From NCBI GenBank assembly GCA_035573235.1, contig DATMZX010000331.1, forward strand, positions 1 to 39,191: a DNA stretch of 39,191 nucleotides, given 5' to 3'. The position numbers and the translations under genes are program-made. Below the pieces are notes generated by a model. That model did no database searches. It was not told the DNA's origin and was given only the letters and a program-made list of their open reading frames with translations. How positions within the stretch are numbered: the first letter of the stretch is position 1; each line of letters starts with the position of its first letter. This DNA comes from Gemmatimonadales bacterium (GTDB lineage Bacteria > Gemmatimonadota > Gemmatimonadetes > Gemmatimonadales > GWC2-71-9). Shown here piece by piece: positions 19,405-32,761 of this stretch.

Positions 19405-20529
19405 ATGCGGTTGTTCTTCCGTGCCGGATTCGTGGCCCTTTTGACCGCGGGCCTGGCGGCGTGCAACAAGGATTCCGCGAGCCCGGTCGACTTTGAGAAT
19501 CCGGCGGCGGTGTCGGCGAATCTCTCATCCGTCGATTCCACATTCGACAGCGACGTGTTCCGCGCCTTCTCCGTGACGACGTTCATGCTCGACGCGGCGA
19601 CGTCCCCCGCGATTCGCCCCGCGGCGACGCTACTCCAGGCGTTGCATCCGAAGCTCGCGCGCTCCGGGGCTCAGGCGTTCCTGCCCGGCCTGGTCTCGGG
19701 TCGCAAGCTCCAGATGTTGACGCCGCAGCTCAGCCTCTCCGCCGCACAGGGCGCGATCATTCCCGACTCGCTGTACGGACGCGTCTATGTGTGGAATGAC
19801 ACGACCGATACGTACGTGTTTCGGGACTCGACGGTCGCCAACCTCAACGGCGTGCGCTTCGTCTTGTACGCTGTTGGACTCGACAACCAGGTCTTCGAGC
19901 CCGTCACGGCGATCGGCACGCTCGACGTCATCGATGCGAGCACGCCGAACGCGCTGCAGCTGCACGTATTGGTCAAGAACAACGCAGGCACGACGACGTA
20001 CGTCGACTACACGGTGGAGCTGACCGGCAATTCCTCGACCGCGCAGGCAACCGCCACGGGTTCGATTCAGAACGGCCTCGCGCAGCCGAACCATAAGCAG
20101 CTGGAGTTCAACGAGACGCTCACCGTAACCGCGAGCAGCATCCGGGTCGCGGCGACGTTTGGGCTCAACAATCCCGCGACCACGCTGATGCTGAACGAGT
20201 CGCTCAGCTTCAACGATCCGGACCTCGTCATCAATGCCGATTTCCGGATCATCCAGAACCAGCAGACGATCCGGACCGTGGGGCGCATCACGATCAACAA
20301 TCTGAGCCAGGATCTGAACGTCAGCATCACGGTCTATGTCGATGGTCACCCGGTGGCCTCGATCACCGGAGATCCGACGCTGCCGGGAACGCAGTGGGTC
20401 GACGCCGGCGGGGAGCCGCTCACCGCGGCCGACCTCGCGGCGCTGGACGATCTGTTCGACGCACTCGAGCAGTTCGATGCGGCCATATCGGGCTTGTTCT
20501 CACCGATCGGCACGTTCGCCGGTCTCTAG
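19405..20529 (+). CDS. hypothetical lipoprotein (N/T/Q-rich)
   Basis: An internal ATG follows an AGGAGG RBS at 19395-19400. The signal peptide MRLFFRAGFVALLTAGLAAC carries a lipobox (LAAC). No family was recognised. Confidence 0.7.
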   Translation: MRLFFRAGFVALLTAGLAACNKDSASPVDFENPAAVSANLSSVDSTFDSDVFRAFSVTTFMLDAATSPAIRPAATLLQALHPKLARSGAQAFLPGLVSGRKLQMLTPQLSLSAAQGAIIPDSLYGRVYVWNDTTDTYVFRDSTVANLNGVRFVLYAVGLDNQVFEPVTAIGTLDVIDASTPNALQLHVLVKNNAGTTTYVDYTVELTGNSSTAQATATGSIQNGLAQPNHKQLEFNETLTVTASSIRVAATFGLNNPATTLMLNESLSFNDPDLVINADFRIIQNQQTIRTVGRITINNLSQDLNVSITVYVDGHPVASITGDPTLPGTQWVDAGGEPLTAADLAALDDLFDALEQFDAAISGLFSPIGTFAGL

Positions 20530-20543
20530 TCCCTGCAGCACCG

Positions 20544-20584
20544 AACTCCCCGCTCGGCTCTGGCCGGGCGGGGAGTTTTGCTTT
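20544..20584 (+). terminator. rho-independent terminator
   Basis: A 10-bp stem (aactccccgc at 20544-20553 paired with gcggggagtt at 20568-20577) encloses a 14-nt loop and is followed by ttttgcttt. Confidence 0.7.
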
Positions 20585-27155: not shown

Positions 27156-27436
27156 GGATCTATCTCCGGCATTTCTTCATCGCGCTGTTACCGCTGATCA
27201 TTGGACTGGCCGCGAGCTGGGGCTTCGCGTTCTCGCAGAACACGTGCGGCCGGCTCGTCGGTCCGATCTTCGCGCCCAAGTGTCACTGGATTCAGCTCGA
27301 GTACCAGCTCGGCTTTCAGATGGCCGGGACGGCGCTCGGGTGTCTCATCGCCGTCGTTGTCGGTGCGTCGCTGGAGCGCCGCAGCCGGCGCAAGAGAGAA
27401 GACGTCGAACCCATCACTGAAGGAGTGTCCGCATGA
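27152..27436 (+). CDS. small two-TM membrane protein (94 aa)
   Basis: An internal ATG is coupled to the upstream stop (ATGA). There are two hydrophobic spans (FFIALLPLIIGLAASWGFAF and GTALGCLIAVVVGA) and a basic tail. Confidence 0.5.
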   Translation: MRIYLRHFFIALLPLIIGLAASWGFAFSQNTCGRLVGPIFAPKCHWIQLEYQLGFQMAGTALGCLIAVVVGASLERRSRRKREDVEPITEGVSA

Positions 27437-27867
27437 AAGCGCTCCGCATACTGGTTGTGCTGCTTGGATTGGCGGGACCACTCATCGCCCAGGATTCGAC
27501 CCCGGCGCGGCCGGCCGCCCCCGCCCCCGCCCCCGCGGCGGCCCCGAGCAATGTGAGTGTCGAGGCGGTCCTGGCGCGCACGTTGGTCGATCGCGCTCCG
27601 CAGGATACGGGAACCGCGTTCCCCGACAGTGTCGGAACGATCGTGTTGTGGATGCGCGCGAGCGGCGCGAGCGGGCAGACGCTGCACCATGTGTGGTTTT
27701 ACGGCGACACGGAAGTCGGCAATGTGCCGCTGACGATCTCGGGATCGCCCTGGAGGACGTGGAGCCGGAAGACGGTGCCGGCGGAGGCGAAGGGGGCGTG
27801 GCATGTGGAGATTCGGGATGACGCCGGGACCGTTCTGAAAAGAATCGACTTCACGGTTGGGCAATAA
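27433..27867 (+). CDS. DUF2914-like secreted protein
   Basis: 144 aa with signal peptide MKALRILVVLLGLAGPLIAQ, a P/A-rich linker and a C-terminal module (LHHVWFYGDTEV...WRTWSRK...GAWHVEIRD) resembling DUF2914. Confidence 0.65.
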   Translation: MKALRILVVLLGLAGPLIAQDSTPARPAAPAPAPAAAPSNVSVEAVLARTLVDRAPQDTGTAFPDSVGTIVLWMRASGASGQTLHHVWFYGDTEVGNVPLTISGSPWRTWSRKTVPAEAKGAWHVEIRDDAGTVLKRIDFTVGQ

Positions 27868-27880
27868 CCAGGAAAGGCCA

Positions 27881-27979
27881 AGACTAGACGTCTAGACGTC
27901 CGGCGGCTGCAGGTTGTAGGGTGCAGGACTTCCTGCACACTCGGCCCTAGTCACCGCGAGACGTCTAGACGTCTAGTTT
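27881..27979. repeat. hyphenated palindrome of about 100 bp: perfect 18-bp inverted repeats made of tandem AGACGTCT octamers, flanking an inner 8-bp-stem hairpin
   Basis: The left arm actagacgtctagacgtc (27883-27900) is the exact reverse complement of the right arm gacgtctagacgtctagt (27960-27977). The inner palindrome is gtgcagga-ct-tcctgcac (27921-27938). The right arm is followed by TTTTT. There are six CTAG tetramers within 27884-27993. Confidence 0.9.
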
Positions 27980-28008
27980 TTGCATCTCCTAGTGTTTCCA
28001 TTTATTGT
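27980..28008 (+). promoter_or_regulatory. candidate sigma70-like promoter (TTGCAT-17 nt-TATTGT) for the DUF2780 gene
   Basis: TTGCAT at 27980-27985 and TATTGT at 28003-28008 lie in a locally AT-rich stretch. The ATG at 28018 is only 9 nt past the -10 element and has no SD sequence, so the mRNA would be leaderless or nearly so. Confidence 0.3.
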
Positions 28009-28017
28009 AGGCCCGCA

Positions 28018-28380
28018 ATGGACCTCGTCGACCAGATCGTCGCCAACTTGTCCGTCGAGCCCGGTCAGGCCGAAAAGGGTATCGGCGCGATCCTGATTTC
28101 AATGCGCATGTCCGTCGACAAGGCAACATTCGAAAAGGTCCGCGCGGCCGTCCCGGCTCATGAGAGCTACATGGGTCGCGCCTTGATGAGCGGCGCGCGC
28201 ACCGGTGAGATGATCGGCGTCGCGGGGCCCGCCGCGCTGTCGGCCGGACTCTCCGCGGCCGGCTTTCGCAAAGAGGATCTGCCGCGGCTCGGCAGCATCG
28301 TCATGGAGCATCTGCGGCCCAGTCTCGGCAACGATGTGATCGAGCGCTTCCTCGCGGGAGCCCCCGTCCTCAGAGCTTGA
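28018..28380 (+). CDS. DUF2780-like hypothetical protein
   Basis: 120 aa. The N-terminus (DLVDQIVANLSVEPGQAEKGIGAIL) and overall length and pattern resemble DUF2780 as I recall it. The 3' end overlaps the convergent kinase gene by 11 nt. Confidence 0.6.
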   Translation: MDLVDQIVANLSVEPGQAEKGIGAILISMRMSVDKATFEKVRAAVPAHESYMGRALMSGARTGEMIGVAGPAALSAGLSAAGFRKEDLPRLGSIVMEHLRPSLGNDVIERFLAGAPVLRA

Positions 28381-30622
28381 GCTTCGCCAGCAGCGCCTGG
28401 AAGCGCGGTGACTCCCGCAGCGGATCGAGCATCGGATTCACCTTGAAGTAAACCAGCCAACCCCGCCGGTCCTCGTACGCCTGCTCGGCCAGGTCGAGCG
28501 CGCGGTCGTTGTTTCCGAATCCGATGTGGAGGATCGCCAGGGCCGCCGGCGAGACATAGCCCGCGCGCCCCAGCGCTTCGAGCTCGCCGAGAATGACCTC
28601 GGCTGCGGCGCGCTTGCCCGCACGCGCCAGGACCCAGCCCAGCGTCGCCTTCGTGTAGGCATCCGCGCCGGGGAGATCGACGGCGTCGCGCAGCACGCGC
28701 TCCGCGTCGCTCGCCTTCCCGGCCAGCTCGAGCACACTGCCGAGAATGCGGTAGCTCTCGACGGCCATGGGGTTCATCTCGATCGCGCGCGCCAGATGAT
28801 CGAGCGCCTGATCGTAGCGGCGCGCGTAGAAGCACATCCAGCCCACGCTGCGCCGTCCTGAGACCGAAGCGGGGTCGAGCTCGAGGGCCGTGTGACCCTC
28901 GAGCAGCGCCGCGTCGTGCTGGCCGCGCGAGCTCAACAGGAAGCCGTACCACTGGTGCGCGCTGCCGTAGCGCGGATTCAGCTCGATCGCGCGGCGGAAC
29001 TCGCGCTCCGCCTCGGCCCAGTCCCAATCGTAGATGAACAGCGACCAGGCCAGCGACGCGTGCGCCGACGGGACGGACTCGTCCAGGGCCAGCGCCTTGC
29101 GCGCGTATTCCTTCGCCAGCGCGTAGGCCTCCGCCACCGGAATCGACCGATAGTCCACATCCAGCGCGTACGAATCGGCGAGACCCGCGTACGCGGGCGC
29201 GTAGCTCGGATCCTCGGCGATGGCCTGCTCGAAAAAGCCGATCGCTTCGGCCACCCCCTCGTGCGTGCGCTTGTTCCAGGCATAGCGGCCTTTGAGGTAC
29301 AGGCCGTAGGCGTTGATGTTCTCGGTGTAGCGGCGCGGTACGTGCTCGGACAGCTCGGTGAACATCGTCGCGCGCAGCGTGTTCACGATGGTGCCGGCGA
29401 TCTCGTCCTGGATCGCGAACACGTCGACGAGCTGGCGATCGAAGCGCTGCGACCACAGCAGCCGTCCGTCCTCCGTGGAGGTGAGCTGGGCGGTGATGCG
29501 CAGCCGATCGCCCGCCTTGCGCACGGTCCCTTCCAGGACGACGGACGCGCCCAGCAGCGCTCCCAGGGCGCGCACGTCGAGCGGCTTTCCTTTCAGCGCG
29601 AACACCGACGTGCGTGACGAGACGCGCAACCCGGAAATCTTGGCCAGCGCGTCGATCAACTCGTCCGTGATCCCGTCGCTCAGATACTCGTTCTCAGCAT
29701 CGGGACTCGCGTTGACGAACGGCAGCACGGCGATGGACCGCGTGACCAACGGCCGGAGCGCGGCCGAGCGCTCCGCCTGGACCAGCGCCGCGATGAAATC
29801 GGCGGTGCTCTCGAAGCGCTGTTCAGGATCCTTTTCGAGCGCCTGGGCGAGCGCCTGTTCCACGGCGACGGGAATTTCGGGTCGCATGCCGCGCGCCGGT
29901 GGGACGCGCTCGGTGACGTGCTTCGCCATGACCGCGCGAGGGCTCGGTGCCGTGAACGGCGGCTCCCCGGTGAGCATCTCGTAGACGACGCACGCCAGAC
30001 TGTACATGTCGCTCGCGGTCCCGAGATCCACCTCGCCGCTGGCCTGTTCGGGACTCATGTACTCGGGCGTGCCGACGGCGAAGCCGACCTCGGTCACGAA
30101 GTCGCGCCGCGGCGTTTCGTCCTCGCCCTCGCAGCAGGCGCGGGCCACGCCGAAATCGGCCAGCACCGCGTGCCCGTCGGCGAACAGGATGTTCTCGGGC
30201 TTCACATCGCGATGCACGAAGCCTTTGCGGTGCGCGAAGTCCAGTCCCGCGCCGATTTCCTGCGCGATCCGGAGGGCGTCCTTGATCGGCAGGCGGCGCT
30301 CGGCGTCGAGCCGCTCGCGCAGCGAACCGCCCGGCACGTGCGGCTGCACGTAATAGAGGAGCCCGGCGGCCTCGCCGGAGTCGATCAGCGGAACGATGTG
30401 CGGATGCGACAGGCGCGCGGCGATCCCGATCTCACGCAGAAAGCGCTCGGTCCCCAGGGCCGCGGTGATTTCGGGCCGCAGGACTTTGATCGCGACTTTG
30501 CGGCCGTGCTTCTTCTCTTCGGCCAGATAAACCGTCGCCATGCCGCCCCGGCCGAGCTCGCGCTCGACGGTGTAGCGATCGGCGAGGGCCGATGCGATGG
30601 GAAGCGGCTCCGTGGTGGGCAC
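28370..30622 (-). CDS. Hanks-type Ser/Thr protein kinase with a central alpha/beta domain and C-terminal TPR repeats
   Basis: The GTG start at 30622 gives MPTTEPLPIASALADRYTVERELGRGGMATVYLA. Kinase motifs are the G-loop GRGGMATVY, the lysine in VAIKVL, HRDVKPENIL, DFG and GTPEYMSPEQ. A module SIAVLPFVNASPDAENEYLSDGITDELI follows, then TPR repeats. I saw no TM segment. Confidence 0.85.
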   Translation of the reverse strand: MPTTEPLPIASALADRYTVERELGRGGMATVYLAEEKKHGRKVAIKVLRPEITAALGTERFLREIGIAARLSHPHIVPLIDSGEAAGLLYYVQPHVPGGSLRERLDAERRLPIKDALRIAQEIGAGLDFAHRKGFVHRDVKPENILFADGHAVLADFGVARACCEGEDETPRRDFVTEVGFAVGTPEYMSPEQASGEVDLGTASDMYSLACVVYEMLTGEPPFTAPSPRAVMAKHVTERVPPARGMRPEIPVAVEQALAQALEKDPEQRFESTADFIAALVQAERSAALRPLVTRSIAVLPFVNASPDAENEYLSDGITDELIDALAKISGLRVSSRTSVFALKGKPLDVRALGALLGASVVLEGTVRKAGDRLRITAQLTSTEDGRLLWSQRFDRQLVDVFAIQDEIAGTIVNTLRATMFTELSEHVPRRYTENINAYGLYLKGRYAWNKRTHEGVAEAIGFFEQAIAEDPSYAPAYAGLADSYALDVDYRSIPVAEAYALAKEYARKALALDESVPSAHASLAWSLFIYDWDWAEAEREFRRAIELNPRYGSAHQWYGFLLSSRGQHDAALLEGHTALELDPASVSGRRSVGWMCFYARRYDQALDHLARAIEMNPMAVESYRILGSVLELAGKASDAERVLRDAVDLPGADAYTKATLGWVLARAGKRAAAEVILGELEALGRAGYVSPAALAILHIGFGNNDRALDLAEQAYEDRRGWLVYFKVNPMLDPLRESPRFQALLAKLKL

Positions 30623-32703: not shown

Positions 32704-32761
32704 CTGAGGACAGTTGCGAAGTTGCGCAGACGGCAAAGTTGCAAGAACGCGCCGCGACTCG

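What the first reader, a model, noticed from the sequence alone, without database searches (positions are those of the whole stretch)
27881..27979. 100-bp hyphenated palindrome whose arms are tandem AGACGTCT octamers, the exact MetJ met-box consensus, in a non-gammaproteobacterial context
Seen in the sequence: in the 150-bp gap between the DUF2914 and DUF2780 genes, an 18-bp left arm (27883-27900, actagacgtctagacgtc) is the perfect reverse complement of the right arm (27960-27977).

The right arm contains two perfect tandem AGACGTCT boxes (27959-27966 and 27967-27974). The left arm contains one perfect box (27886-27893) and one 7/8 box (27894-27901).

The 59-bp spacer carries its own perfect palindrome, gtgcagga-ct-tcctgcac (27921-27938). 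It also has partly complementary flanks (cggcgg/ccgcg). Six CTAG tetramers fall within about 110 bp, and CTAG is generally avoided in bacterial genomes.

Established knowledge: AGACGTCT is the 8-bp met-box consensus. It is bound as tandem arrays of 2-5 copies by the ribbon-helix-helix repressor MetJ, a regulator I know only from Gammaproteobacteria. AGACGTCTAGACGTCT is the idealised two-box operator.

Inference: there are three explanations, which are not exclusive. First, the arms could be paired operators for a cooperative RHH-type (MetJ/Arc/CopG-like) regulator. The right site abuts a putative -35 element and the left site lies 73 bp upstream (8/8 box starts at 27886 and 27959), a geometry that would allow looping. 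Second, the palindrome could be an unusually long intrinsic terminator for the upstream operon, since the right arm is followed by TTTTT. Third, it could be a MITE- or REP-like palindromic element. No RHH gene is visible in this window.
Basis: partly seen in the sequence, partly recalled or inferred. Interest (0 to 1): 0.7.

Follow-up and report, generated by a model that had tools for sequence, protein, structure and literature searches.

The report
Nested palindromic terminator repeat, not MetJ operator
The "met-box" palindrome is one copy of a repeat family scattered between genes in Gemmatimonadales soil bacteria; here it folds into a long hairpin that most likely ends transcription of the upstream operon, and its match to the E. 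coli MetJ binding site is a coincidence.

Summary
The 17/18-nt arms, three exact AGACGTCT boxes, inner palindrome, T5 run and six CTAGs all sit at the stated coordinates.

The MetJ-operator reading is not supported.
- The window comes from a Gemmatimonadales genome.
- Tandem CTAGACGT octamers (AGACGTCT in another register) are a dispersed motif of that order. There are several to at least 12 exact 17-mers per MAG, and none of 83 sites lies inside a gene.
- The arrays mostly sit directly after stop codons, in convergent gaps, or against tRNA genes.

At the orthologous DUF2914–DUF2780 gap in 88 related contigs, the element ranges from absent (13 nt between the genes) to a plain 15-bp terminator hairpin to 170-nt nested palindromes.
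- The arm octamers differ between lineages (CTAGACGT, ACAGACGC, CGAGACGC, GGTTAGCC).
- The two arms always stay complementary.
- A T-run and a conserved −10 box follow the hairpin.

Full array–core–array composites also occur at 15 or more unrelated loci.

Best reading: a REP/REPIN-like nested palindrome acting as an intrinsic terminator and insulator. Its outer right arm supplies the −35 of a probably leaderless DUF2780 promoter. This is a new variant of a known kind, of modest interest. The tight association of arrays with tRNA genes remains unexplained.

The parts
27433..27867 (+). DUF2914 gene, last gene of the upstream co-directional gene string; stop codon TAA at 27865-27867
   Evidence: Pfam PF11141, E = 2.7e-19. 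Synteny with DUF2780 is kept in all relatives examined.
27867..27993 (.). Whole nested palindromic element: outer arms, octamer arrays and core
   Evidence: 40-nt arms at 83% complementarity. Fold of -79 kcal/mol, z = -9.9, on both strands. Same architecture as the elements at the orthologous site and at other loci.
27868..27883 (.). Outer left arm (CCAGGAAAGGCCAAGA), a degenerate version of the family's GCGGGGACATGCAAAAG
   Evidence: Comparison with the orthologous variants. The same outer-arm sequence occurs at other loci: L063, L090, L094.
27884..27900 (.). Left octamer array CTAGACGTCTAGACGTC (about 2.1 units of CTAGACGT; contains the 8/8 box at 27886 and the 7/8 box at 27894)
   Evidence: The exact 17-mer was found in at least 73 Gemmatimonad loci.
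27901..27959 (.). 59-nt core ('B-type'). Stem CGGCGG/CCGCG (27901-27906 with 27954-27958), then central palindrome GTGCAGGA-CT-TCCTGCAC (27921-27938)
   Evidence: Aligns with the B cores of L151, L175, L177, L178, L198 and of the non-orthologous L112, L032, L027. The core is dispensable: it is shortened or absent in the strain variants L002 and L005.
27960..27976 (.). Right octamer array GACGTCTAGACGTCTAG (the two exact AGACGTCT boxes start at 27959 and 27967). It is also a local 6-bp hairpin in its own right.
   Evidence: The terminator-like scan hit covers 27959-27974 plus the tail AGTTTTTGCA.
27977..27981 (+). T5 run directly after the hairpin (the U-tract of the proposed intrinsic terminator)
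   Evidence: A T-run at this position is conserved: 37 of 49 orthologous variants have TTTT at the hairpin's 3' end.
27977..27993 (.). Outer right arm TTTTTGCATCTCCTAGT (family consensus CTTTTGCATGTCCCCGC)
   Evidence: BLAST hits of this arm at L063 and L094.
27980..27985 (+). -35-like hexamer TTGCAT, lying inside the outer right arm
   Evidence: Read from the sequence: 17-nt spacer to TATTGT. Conserved in the orthologous variants. Its function as a promoter element is an inference.
28003..28008 (+). -10-like hexamer TATTGT, 9 nt before the ATG, implying a leaderless or near-leaderless DUF2780 mRNA
   Evidence: A TTAT.. motif lies within 25 nt of the ATG in 47 of 49 element-bearing variants and is absent from the element-less clade. 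Inference only; the simple promoter scan did not list this site.
28018..28380 (+). DUF2780 gene downstream of the element
   Evidence: Pfam PF11075. 215 homologues, those carrying a source name being Gemmatimonadales/Gemmatimonadetes.

Best explanation
The element (27867-27993) is a copy of a nested palindromic repeat family of Gemmatimonadales. It has three layers.
- An outer stem, flanked by an A-run on the left and a T-run on the right.
- Arms made of tandem octamers of the NNAGACGY / CTAGACGT type.
- An optional hairpin core at the apex.

Once transcribed from the upstream DUF2914 operon, it folds into a very stable hairpin. This is either the full ~100-nt structure or the local hairpin formed by the right arm alone. 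A U-run follows immediately, so the element most likely acts as a Rho-independent terminator and insulator.

The outer right arm carries TTGCAT. Together with TATTGT 17 nt downstream, this forms a promoter that restarts transcription 0-3 nt before the DUF2780 ATG, giving a leaderless mRNA.

The identity of the arm units with the E. coli met-box consensus is coincidental. AGACGTCT is simply the fully self-complementary form of the family's octamer.

Shown: the anatomy, the dispersal of the family, conservation of the structure with compensatory changes, and the conserved T-run and -10 box. Inferred: that termination and promoter activity actually occur, and how the family spreads.
For: Family membership and dispersal:
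Of these, 73 are in Gemmatimonadales/Gemmatimonadota MAGs, with 4 to 12 loci per MAG.
- In 505 kb of those loci there are 104 arrays at 83 sites and none in shuffles. None lies in a called CDS although 90% of the DNA is coding.
- 65 of 104 arrays have a gene 3' end within 25 nt. 19 sites lie in convergent gaps, out of only 35 convergent gaps in all the loci.
- A profile of the whole composite finds full-length array-core-array copies at 15 or more non-orthologous loci. The six composites folded (five of them among these loci) give -62 to -107 kcal/mol over the stretches folded.

Structure is conserved, not sequence:
- The DUF2914-DUF2780 gap gives 56 distinct sequences from 88 contigs. Seven variants have no element, with a 13-14 nt gap. 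The other 49 have a hairpin of 15-59 bp.
- Arm units differ by lineage (CTAGACGT, CTAGACGC/ACAGACGC, ACCGACGC, CGAGACGC, GGTTAGCC), and each left arm pairs with its own right arm.
- In the alignment of 10 B-core composites, 96.9% of cells are paired, against 30-42% when the partner is slid. Eleven cells show changes on both sides (0 of 500 shuffles reach this), and three arm pairs switch U-A to C-G or G-C.

Terminator signature at this locus:
- 31 of 49 variants have at least 4 T in the 8 nt after the hairpin (background 5%), and 37 of 49 have TTTT at the 3' end.
- The simplest variants (L133, L134, L180, L199) are textbook terminators.
- The window's right arm plus T5 is picked up by the terminator scan.

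Promoter:
- TTGCAT-17 nt-TATTGT, with the -10 box conserved in 47 of 49 element-bearing variants and missing in the element-less clade.
Against: - No transcript data exist, so termination and initiation are inferred from sequence only.
- Genome-wide, arrays next to CDS 3' ends rarely carry a U-tract: only 10% have at least 4 T in the next 8 nt. At groEL the array is followed by a separate canonical terminator. Arrays also fill the spacers inside tRNA operons. The array itself is therefore not a general terminator. The terminator reading rests on the outer stem and T-run at this locus.
- Complementarity of long palindrome arms can also be kept by template-switch repair or by copying of a mobile palindrome, without any selection on RNA folding.
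- A ~100-nt hairpin with a 59-nt interior is atypical for an intrinsic terminator.
- The simple sigma-70 scan did not report the proposed promoter.
- No transposase (RAYT or other) was found, so the means of dispersal is unknown.
Confidence: 0.65

Rival explanations
1. Paired operators for a cooperative ribbon-helix-helix (MetJ/Arc/CopG-like) repressor. Dimers would bind the tandem 8-bp boxes at both arms and loop the 73 bp between them to control the DUF2780 promoter.
For: - The arms are the exact two-box met-box consensus (consensus from PMC4239095).
- The right arm abuts a -35-like hexamer.
- Across the family, the period-8 CTAG phase is the best-conserved feature (C .93, T .88, A .90, G .95).
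- Some arrays are direct, non-palindromic repeats that cannot form a hairpin (L121 14130-14161). This would suit tandem protein binding.
Against: - At the orthologous promoter the boxes are replaced by unrelated octamers, reduced to a plain hairpin, or absent altogether, while DUF2780 is retained.
- Arrays lie mainly after stop codons, in convergent gaps and against tRNA ends, not at a fixed promoter position.
- Neighbouring genes are unrelated housekeeping genes: groEL, topA, aroK, kinases and tRNAs. None is a methionine gene.
- No MetJ homologue in 1.33 Mb of held DNA, and no RHH domain in ten window ORFs scanned, six of them small.
- MetJ orthologues are reported only from some orders of Gammaproteobacteria (PMC4239095).
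Confidence: 0.04
2. A selfish or neutral REPIN/MITE-like mobile palindrome that merely sits in a permissive intergenic site. Any terminator or promoter effect would be incidental or absent.
For: - Dispersed family with presence/absence polymorphism at the orthologous site.
- Nested insertions at hairpin apices, with two unrelated core types, A and B, at the same site.
- Frequent internal deletions between close strains: L002 and L005 against the window; L194 and L186.
- The anatomy resembles a REP doublet (REPIN): two inverted repeats around a spacer (PMC3337134 abstract).
Against: - A hairpin plus T-run persists at this site across lineages of 78-99% protein identity, despite complete turnover of the arm sequence. 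This is easier to explain if it is selected.
- No associated transposase was found.
- No target-site duplication is visible at the element's ends.
Confidence: 0.18
3. An RNA 3'-end or intercistronic hairpin that works after transcription, as E. coli REPs do. It would protect upstream mRNA from 3'-5' exonucleases, stall ribosomes at nearby stop codons, or serve as a double-stranded RNase III-type processing site, rather than terminating transcription.
For: - Arrays begin within -20 to +5 nt of the stop codon in 52 cases, and the TAG stop is often the array's own CTAG.
- Most arrays lack U-tracts.
- At groEL the array lies in the 3' UTR, ahead of the real terminator.
- Arrays sit 0-6 nt from mature tRNA 5' and 3' ends and fill tRNA-tRNA spacers, so they must be transcribed and then removed.
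Against: - At the window locus the hairpin is followed by a conserved T-run and a downstream promoter, which is the signature of a terminator.
- There is no RNA evidence either way.
Confidence: 0.1

Closest known systems
REP elements and REPINs (repetitive extragenic palindromes and REP doublets forming hairpins; E. coli, Pseudomonas)
   Same: Short palindromic repeats that are strictly extragenic and present in many copies per genome. They often lie between a stop codon and a terminator or in convergent gaps. They are organised as inverted pairs around a spacer that fold into long hairpins of about 100 nt, and they show presence/absence and decay between relatives.
   Different: - The arms here are tandem self-complementary octamers of variable copy number (2-7 units) rather than a single 20-40-nt imperfect palindrome.
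- There is no unpaired GTAG or CGTC tag as defined for the two REP superfamilies (PMC3733652).
- No RAYT was found.
- The elements are nested in up to three layers.
- They associate strongly with tRNA gene ends.
- The host phylum is not among those listed for tagged REPs in that paper (0 occurrences of 'Gemmatimon').
Rho-independent (intrinsic) terminators, including bidirectional ones and those built from genome-specific repeated words (for example DNA uptake sequence pairs in Neisseria; recalled from memory)
   Same: A G+C-rich hairpin directly followed by a T-run, just downstream of the last gene of an operon. An A-run on the left and a T-run on the right give symmetry. The stem is built from a word that is over-represented across the genome.
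   Different: The hairpin is far longer than usual (up to 59 bp over about 160 nt, and 100 nt in the window) and carries an internal core. Most family members elsewhere lack a U-tract.
MetJ operators (tandem met boxes, Gammaproteobacteria)
   Same: Identical 8-bp consensus AGACGTCT in tandem arrays of 2-5 copies with 8-bp phasing.
   Different: - Different phylum, and no MetJ gene was found.
- Not located at promoters of methionine genes.
- Sequence not conserved at orthologous sites.
- Arrays occur as inverted pairs forming hairpins, at gene 3' ends and beside tRNA genes.
MITEs and other nested small palindromic elements such as Correia or ERIC/BIME-type clusters (recalled from memory)
   Same: Elements of 100-170 bp with terminal inverted repeats, dispersed, non-coding, sometimes supplying promoter or terminator signals to neighbouring genes.
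   Different: No target-site duplication and no cognate IS identified. The 'terminal repeats' are octamer arrays that also occur alone.

Membership tests
MetJ operator / met-box regulon | Two or more tandem 8-bp boxes matching AGACGTCT | tested here: met
   27959-27974 holds two exact boxes. 27886-27901 holds one exact box and one 7/8 box.
MetJ operator / met-box regulon | A MetJ (RHH, SAM-binding) repressor encoded in the genome | tested here: inconclusive
   tblastn with E. coli MetJ (sequence recalled from memory) against 1.33 Mb of held DNA, window included, gave only chance hits (E >= 0.5). Pfam scan of ten window ORFs, six of them small (94-170 aa), gave no RHH domain. The complete genome was not available. 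MetJ orthologues are reported from six groups of Gammaproteobacteria (PMC4239095).
MetJ operator / met-box regulon | Sites located in promoters of methionine biosynthesis or transport genes | tested here: not met
   The window site lies between DUF2914 and DUF2780. Family members lie after stop codons, in convergent gaps, and next to tRNA genes, groEL, topA and aroK.
MetJ operator / met-box regulon | Box sequence conserved at orthologous promoters | tested here: not met
   At the orthologous site the arms are CTAGACGC/ACAGACGC, ACCGACGC, CGAGACGC, GGTTAGCC, a plain hairpin, or nothing.
Intrinsic (Rho-independent) terminator | Stable G+C-rich hairpin immediately followed by a T-run, downstream of a gene's 3' end and on its strand | tested here: met
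   The hairpin starts within 16 nt of the DUF2914 stop codon, and T5 lies at 27977-27981. The feature is conserved in 31-37 of 49 orthologous variants.
Intrinsic (Rho-independent) terminator | Transcripts actually end at the T-run | not testable with these tools
   No RNA data available. Term-seq or a reporter assay is needed.
REP / REPIN | Short palindromic repeat, extragenic, many copies per genome | tested here: met
   0 of 83 sites lie inside a CDS. There are 4-12 exact 17-mer loci per MAG in a truncated scan. Roughly one site per 20-40 kb in the window and in unseeded flanks. A full per-genome census was not possible.
REP / REPIN | Inverted doublets around a spacer that fold into one long hairpin | tested here: met
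   The window element and 15 or more other loci. Covariation support.
REP / REPIN | Cognate RAYT (IS200-like tyrosine transposase) gene flanked by the repeats | tested here: inconclusive
   Genes flanked by arrays on both sides are ParA-like, four-helix-bundle and RNA-helicase-like proteins by my reading of the translations, not transposases. No recurrent transposase cluster among 507 neighbouring proteins. Only about 0.5 Mb was sampled.
REP / REPIN | Unpaired GTAG or CGTC tag at one end of the palindrome (the two REP superfamilies of PMC3733652) | tested here: not met
   The units are CTAGACGT. CGTC and GACG occur inside the paired stem, not as an unpaired tag. Stem and loop dimensions differ from the CGTC families (8-9 bp stems, 4-5 nt loops, CCA tail).
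MITE | Terminal inverted repeats plus a target-site duplication and a related autonomous IS | tested here: not met
   Inverted repeats are present, but no direct duplication flanks 27867-27993 and no IS was identified.

The most novel reading that the evidence does not exclude
The period-8 arrays (CTAG-NCGN / NNAGACGY) could be recognition sites for an undescribed Gemmatimonadales factor. That factor could be a protein binding DNA in tandem, as MetJ or TrpR do. It could instead be an RNA-processing or termination factor that marks the boundaries of transcription units.

This reading would explain four observations:
- arrays abut mature tRNA 5' and 3' ends within 0-6 nt;
- arrays fill tRNA-operon spacers;
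- arrays overlap stop codons;
- arrays sometimes occur as direct, non-hairpin repeats in which AGACGC is conserved and the other two bases vary.
Probability: 0.12. Interest if true: 0.7.

Novelty: new variant of a known kind. Interest (0 to 1): 0.35.

Why it matters
For this finding, the result removes an attractive but wrong lead. There is no MetJ-type regulon outside the Gammaproteobacteria here, only a chance identity of an 8-mer.

More generally, it documents an apparently undescribed repeat family in a poorly studied, mostly uncultured soil order.
- Octamer-array palindromes nest inside one another and turn over quickly, while a hairpin plus T-run is kept at a given site.
- The orthologous series runs from absent, through a simple hairpin, to a 170-nt nested palindrome. 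This is an unusually clear natural record of how terminator hairpins grow, shrink and swap sequence.
- It also shows how such an element can split an operon by bringing a terminator and half a promoter with it.

Practical consequence: these palindromes break short-read assemblies. L003 and L004 both end inside the element. Motif-based regulon prediction in Gemmatimonadota should mask them.

Tried and rejected
- Rfam: no family at the gathering threshold except a tRNA elsewhere in the window. At E <= 1 the only hit is a meaningless miRNA match of 19 bits.
- MetJ tblastn against all held DNA gave chance-level hits only. Pfam on ten window ORFs (six of them 94-170 aa) gave no RHH domain.
- Search for a RAYT or other transposase near arrays. 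I clustered 507 neighbouring proteins and inspected the genes flanked by arrays on both sides. Nothing transposase-like turned up.
- The idea that the array is itself a canonical terminator is rejected for the family. Only 10% of arrays at CDS 3' ends have a U-tract, and groEL has a separate terminator after its array.
- The idea that the array is a -35/-10 promoter element was not pursued. TTGAC-like words often follow arrays, but in some cases they lie 5-11 nt from the start codon, too close to act as a -35.
- The idea that non-palindromic arrays pair across a tRNA (leader with trailer) failed in the one case examined. tRNA-Asn in L121 has no partner array on its 3' side.
- BLAST with the cores alone found few copies. 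A profile of the whole composite was needed to find the others.
- Literature: searches for the motif string, for Gemmatimonadetes with REP or palindromic repeat, and for RAYT/REPIN with Gemmatimonas found nothing describing this family.
Full report
**1. The observation**

- Arms: 27883-27900 (ACTAGACGTCTAGACGTC) is the exact reverse complement of 27960-27977.
- Boxes: AGACGTCT occurs exactly three times in the 39-kb window, all of them here (27886, 27959, 27967), against 0.71 expected.
- Core: the 59-nt spacer carries GTGCAGGA-CT-TCCTGCAC at 27921-27938, and TTTTT follows the right arm.
- CTAG: six of the window's 21 CTAGs lie within 27884-27992, while the window overall is CTAG-poor (21 observed, 37 expected).
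- Fold: the region folds at -79 kcal/mol (z = -9.9) on either strand.

One thing was missed. The imperfect palindrome continues outwards to 27867-27993 (40-nt arms, 83% complementary). It therefore starts at the DUF2914 stop codon and includes the putative -35 hexamer.

The flanking genes are DUF2914 (27433-27867) and DUF2780 (28018-28380).

**2. Whose genome, and is the motif unique?**

- 73 are from Gemmatimonadales/Gemmatimonadota MAGs, with many hits per MAG. Examples are 12 loci in SMAG_U11246 and 7 each in MFD10007.bin.1.48, AG12 and SMAG_U5772.
- The other 42 are scattered, mostly single hits in unrelated taxa. By my arithmetic a random 17-mer should occur about 69 times in 596 Gb on both strands, so these are consistent with chance. 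A few may be real gammaproteobacterial MetJ operators, such as L072 with four perfect boxes.
- Those DUF2780 homologues that carry a source name are Gemmatimonadales/Gemmatimonadetes.

So the window is from a Gemmatimonadales genome, and tandem CTAGACGT (AGACGTCT in another register) is a dispersed motif of that order.

**3. Where the arrays sit**

I analysed 505 kb of Gemmatimonad loci, using my own codon-model gene calls (90% coding) and ARAGORN for tRNAs.
- There are 104 arrays at 83 sites, none in shuffled sequence, and none inside a called CDS.
- Arrays usually have 3-5 units. The CTAG phase is the best-conserved part.
- 65 of 104 arrays have a gene 3' end within 25 nt. 52 start within -20 to +5 nt of the stop codon, and the TAG stop is often the array's own CTAG.
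- 19 sites lie in convergent gaps, although the loci hold only 35 such gaps.
- 24 arrays touch a tRNA gene, and 25 of the 40 tRNA genes in these loci have an array within 10 nt. Arrays make up the entire tRNA-Met/tRNA-Val and tRNA-Pro/tRNA-Arg spacers.
- Downstream of groEL, the array follows the stop codon and is itself followed by a separate canonical terminator.
- Only 10% of arrays at CDS 3' ends are followed by at least 4 T in 8 nt.
- The neighbouring genes are unrelated housekeeping genes.

This distribution is what one expects of REP-like extragenic palindromes, not of operators of a regulon.

**4. The orthologous site in relatives**

The gene order DUF2914 then DUF2780 is conserved. 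I collected the gap between the two genes from 88 related contigs at 78-99% protein identity, which gave 56 distinct sequences.
- Seven variants, representing many contigs, have no element at all. The stop codon is followed by 13-14 nt and then the ATG.
- The simplest element-bearing forms are textbook terminators. One example is L133: GCGAGGACATG...CATGTCCTCGC followed by TTTT.
- Most forms have an outer stem GCGGGGACATGCAAAAG / CTTTTGCATGTCCCCGC followed by T-runs, with octamer arrays at its apex.
- Many also have a hairpin core of one of two unrelated types, A or B, at the apex of the arrays. This gives nested palindromes of up to 159 nt and 59 bp.

The array units differ between lineages:

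| Unit | Found in |
|---|---|
| CTAGACGT | window, L130, L198 |
| CTAGACGC / ACAGACGC | L121, L127, L135 |
| ACCGACGC | L123, L131, L168 |
| CGAGACGC | L136, L162, L179, L181 |
| GGTTAGCC | L125 |

In every case the left arm pairs with its own right arm.

I aligned ten B-core composites, seven orthologous and three from other loci.
- 96.9% of cells pair, against 30-42% when the partner column is slid.
- Eleven cells show changes on both sides, a count that 0 of 500 shuffles reach.
- Three arm pairs switch U-A to C-G or G-C.

The hairpin is followed by at least 4 T in 8 nt in 31 of 49 variants (background 5%), and by TTTT at its 3' end in 37 of 49. A -10-like TTATTGT/TTATTCT sits at a fixed short distance from the ATG in 47 of 49 element-bearing variants. 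It is missing from the element-less clade.

What is conserved at this site is therefore a hairpin, a T-run and a promoter, not the met-box sequence.

**5. The composite is itself a dispersed element**

A profile built from the ten composites finds full-length array-core-array copies at 15 or more non-orthologous loci: L112, L032, L027, L061, L106, L090, L099, L114 (twice), L115, L107, L014, L108, L036, L030 and L094.
- Several lie next to tRNA genes. The six composites folded (five of them among these loci) give -62 to -107 kcal/mol over the stretches folded.
- The B core of L112 is 95% identical over 41 nt to that of the orthologous-site element L151.
- The outer-arm sequence also recurs elsewhere: L063, L090, L094.

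Close strains that encode the identical DUF2780 protein differ by internal deletions. L002 loses most of the core. L005 is reduced to CTAGACGTCTAGACGTC-cggc-GACGTCTAGACGTCTAG-TTTTT. Contigs L003 and L004 end inside the palindrome. This fits the known instability of long palindromes, although assembly artefacts cannot be excluded.

**6. How it most likely works**

*Shown:* the anatomy, the dispersal, the structure-preserving turnover, and the conserved T-run and -10 box.

*Inferred:*
- RNA polymerase coming from the DUF2914 operon transcribes the element.
- Either the full hairpin or the local hairpin of the right arm (AGACGT-CTAG-ACGTCT, flagged) forms just before U5 and releases the transcript.
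- The outer right arm provides TTGCAT (27980-27985). With TATTGT (28003-28008) 17 nt downstream, this makes a promoter that starts about 0-3 nt before the ATG. No Shine-Dalgarno sequence is visible, so the DUF2780 mRNA is probably leaderless.
- In the clade without the element the two genes are 13 nt apart and are presumably co-transcribed. The element thus behaves as a terminator-plus-promoter insulator that splits the operon.

For the family as a whole, a general terminator role is not supported. Roles like those of E. coli REPs remain possible, such as 3'-end protection, intercistronic hairpins or processing sites. So does purely selfish persistence.

**7. Comparison with what is known**

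*MetJ operators.* The 8-mer and the 8-bp phasing are shared (consensus and MetJ's distribution from PMC4239095). Three defining features fail or are unsupported:
- no MetJ or RHH gene was found (limited sampling);
- there is no methionine-gene context;
- the box is not conserved at orthologous sites.

*REP/REPIN elements.* These are the closest known kind. They are extragenic, multi-copy, palindromic and organised as inverted doublets around a spacer. This family differs in several ways:
- it lacks the unpaired GTAG or CGTC tag of the two described REP superfamilies;
- its arms are tandem self-complementary octamers;
- it nests in layers;
- it clings to tRNA genes;
- no RAYT was found.

Gemmatimonadetes are not mentioned in the survey paper, and my literature searches found no description of the motif.

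I therefore rate it a new variant of a known kind.

**8. What remains odd**

- Arrays abut the mature ends of tRNAs within 0-6 nt.
- The dnaJ/tRNA-Asn spacer carries a direct, non-palindromic array (NNAGACGC)x4 in L121 and L178, with no partner array on the other side of the tRNA. In the window the same spacer holds a decayed period-8 relic.
- Period-8 conservation of CTAG or AGACG without any hairpin potential hints at sequence-specific recognition by some factor.

I give that reading about 0.12.

**9. Verdict**

- The MetJ/RHH interpretation is not supported.
- The terminator and REP/MITE-like alternatives are supported.
- Interest is modest (0.35). The finding is ordinary in kind, but it belongs to an apparently undescribed family with an instructive evolutionary series and an unexplained link to tRNA genes.

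Noticed in passing
L024 5131-5162, L030 2602-2633, L038 356-393, L058 5103-5309, L065 3203-3413, L051 5147-5300, L016 2389-2422: Octamer arrays abut mature tRNA 5' and 3' ends within 0-6 nt and make up the entire spacers of tRNA operons (Met-Val, Pro-Arg, Arg-Pro-Arg). 24 of 104 arrays touch a tRNA gene, and 25 of the 40 tRNAs in the sampled loci have an array within 10 nt. The loci hold about 8 times more tRNA genes than expected for 505 kb (my estimate). The function is unknown; one possibility is a processing signal.
   Followed up: partly
L121 14130-14161 and L178 3388-3403; window 32704-32761: The spacer between dnaJ and tRNA-Asn carries a direct, non-palindromic array CTAGACGC-ACAGACGC-GCAGACGC-CCAGACGC, with no complementary partner on the other side of the tRNA. 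In the window the same spacer shows only a decayed period-8 pattern (GCAACTNN-like). A hairpin cannot explain this copy.
   Followed up: partly
L079 7845-7900, L100 1568-1607, L034 308-343, L048 7285-7316, L049 1930-1965: In five species an array of variable copy number (2-6 units) starts at the groEL stop codon and is followed 20-40 nt later by a separate canonical hairpin-plus-T-run terminator. The array therefore sits in the 3' UTR and is not the terminator.
   Followed up: partly
L138, L144, L145, L146, L148, L160, L171, L172, L183, L188, L191, L195, L196, L200 (gap upstream of the DUF2780 start): A clade of relatives has no element at all. The DUF2914 stop codon (TGA) is followed by 13-14 nt and then the DUF2780 ATG, with no -10 box. 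The terminator-plus-promoter module is thus gained or lost as a unit.
   Followed up: yes
L002 1195-1245, L005 117-160, L194, L186 (orthologous gap); contig ends of L003 and L004: Strains with identical or near-identical DUF2780 proteins carry internal or one-sided deletions of the palindrome, and two contigs break inside it. This could be real palindrome instability or an assembly artefact; the two were not distinguished.
   Followed up: partly
window 27980-28020: TTGCAT-17 nt-TATTGT, then 9 nt to the ATG with no Shine-Dalgarno sequence, suggests a leaderless DUF2780 mRNA. The -35 box lies inside the repeat's outer arm.
   Followed up: partly
window 28370-28380: The DUF2780 gene (+) and the convergent Ser/Thr-kinase-TPR gene (-, 28370-30622 or longer) overlap by 11 nt at their 3' ends, with no hairpin between them. 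The same arrangement is seen in L001 and L121.
   Followed up: no
window 20545-20580: An ordinary intrinsic terminator (CCCCGCTCGGCTCTGGCCGGGCGGGG followed by AGTTTT) after the gene ending at 20529. It shows that this genome also uses conventional, non-repeat terminators.
   Followed up: no
L072 4558-4590 (uncultured gammaproteobacterial MAG CAWFCC01): Four perfect tandem AGACGTCT boxes sit about 12 nt upstream of an ATG. This is probably a genuine MetJ operator and would make a useful positive contrast, but the downstream gene was not identified.
   Followed up: no
L120 6053-6570; L052 363-1177: Two small genes are flanked on both sides by arrays. One looks like a four-helix-bundle (23S rRNA intervening-sequence-like) protein of 123 aa, the other like a ParA-type ATPase of 210 aa, both by my reading of the translations. 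Neither is a transposase.
   Followed up: partly
L030 1283-1390: A composite palindrome whose arms are built from a different octamer, CAAGACGC / GCGTCTTG, in 3-4 units. The NNAGACGC theme therefore extends beyond CTAG-containing units.
   Followed up: no
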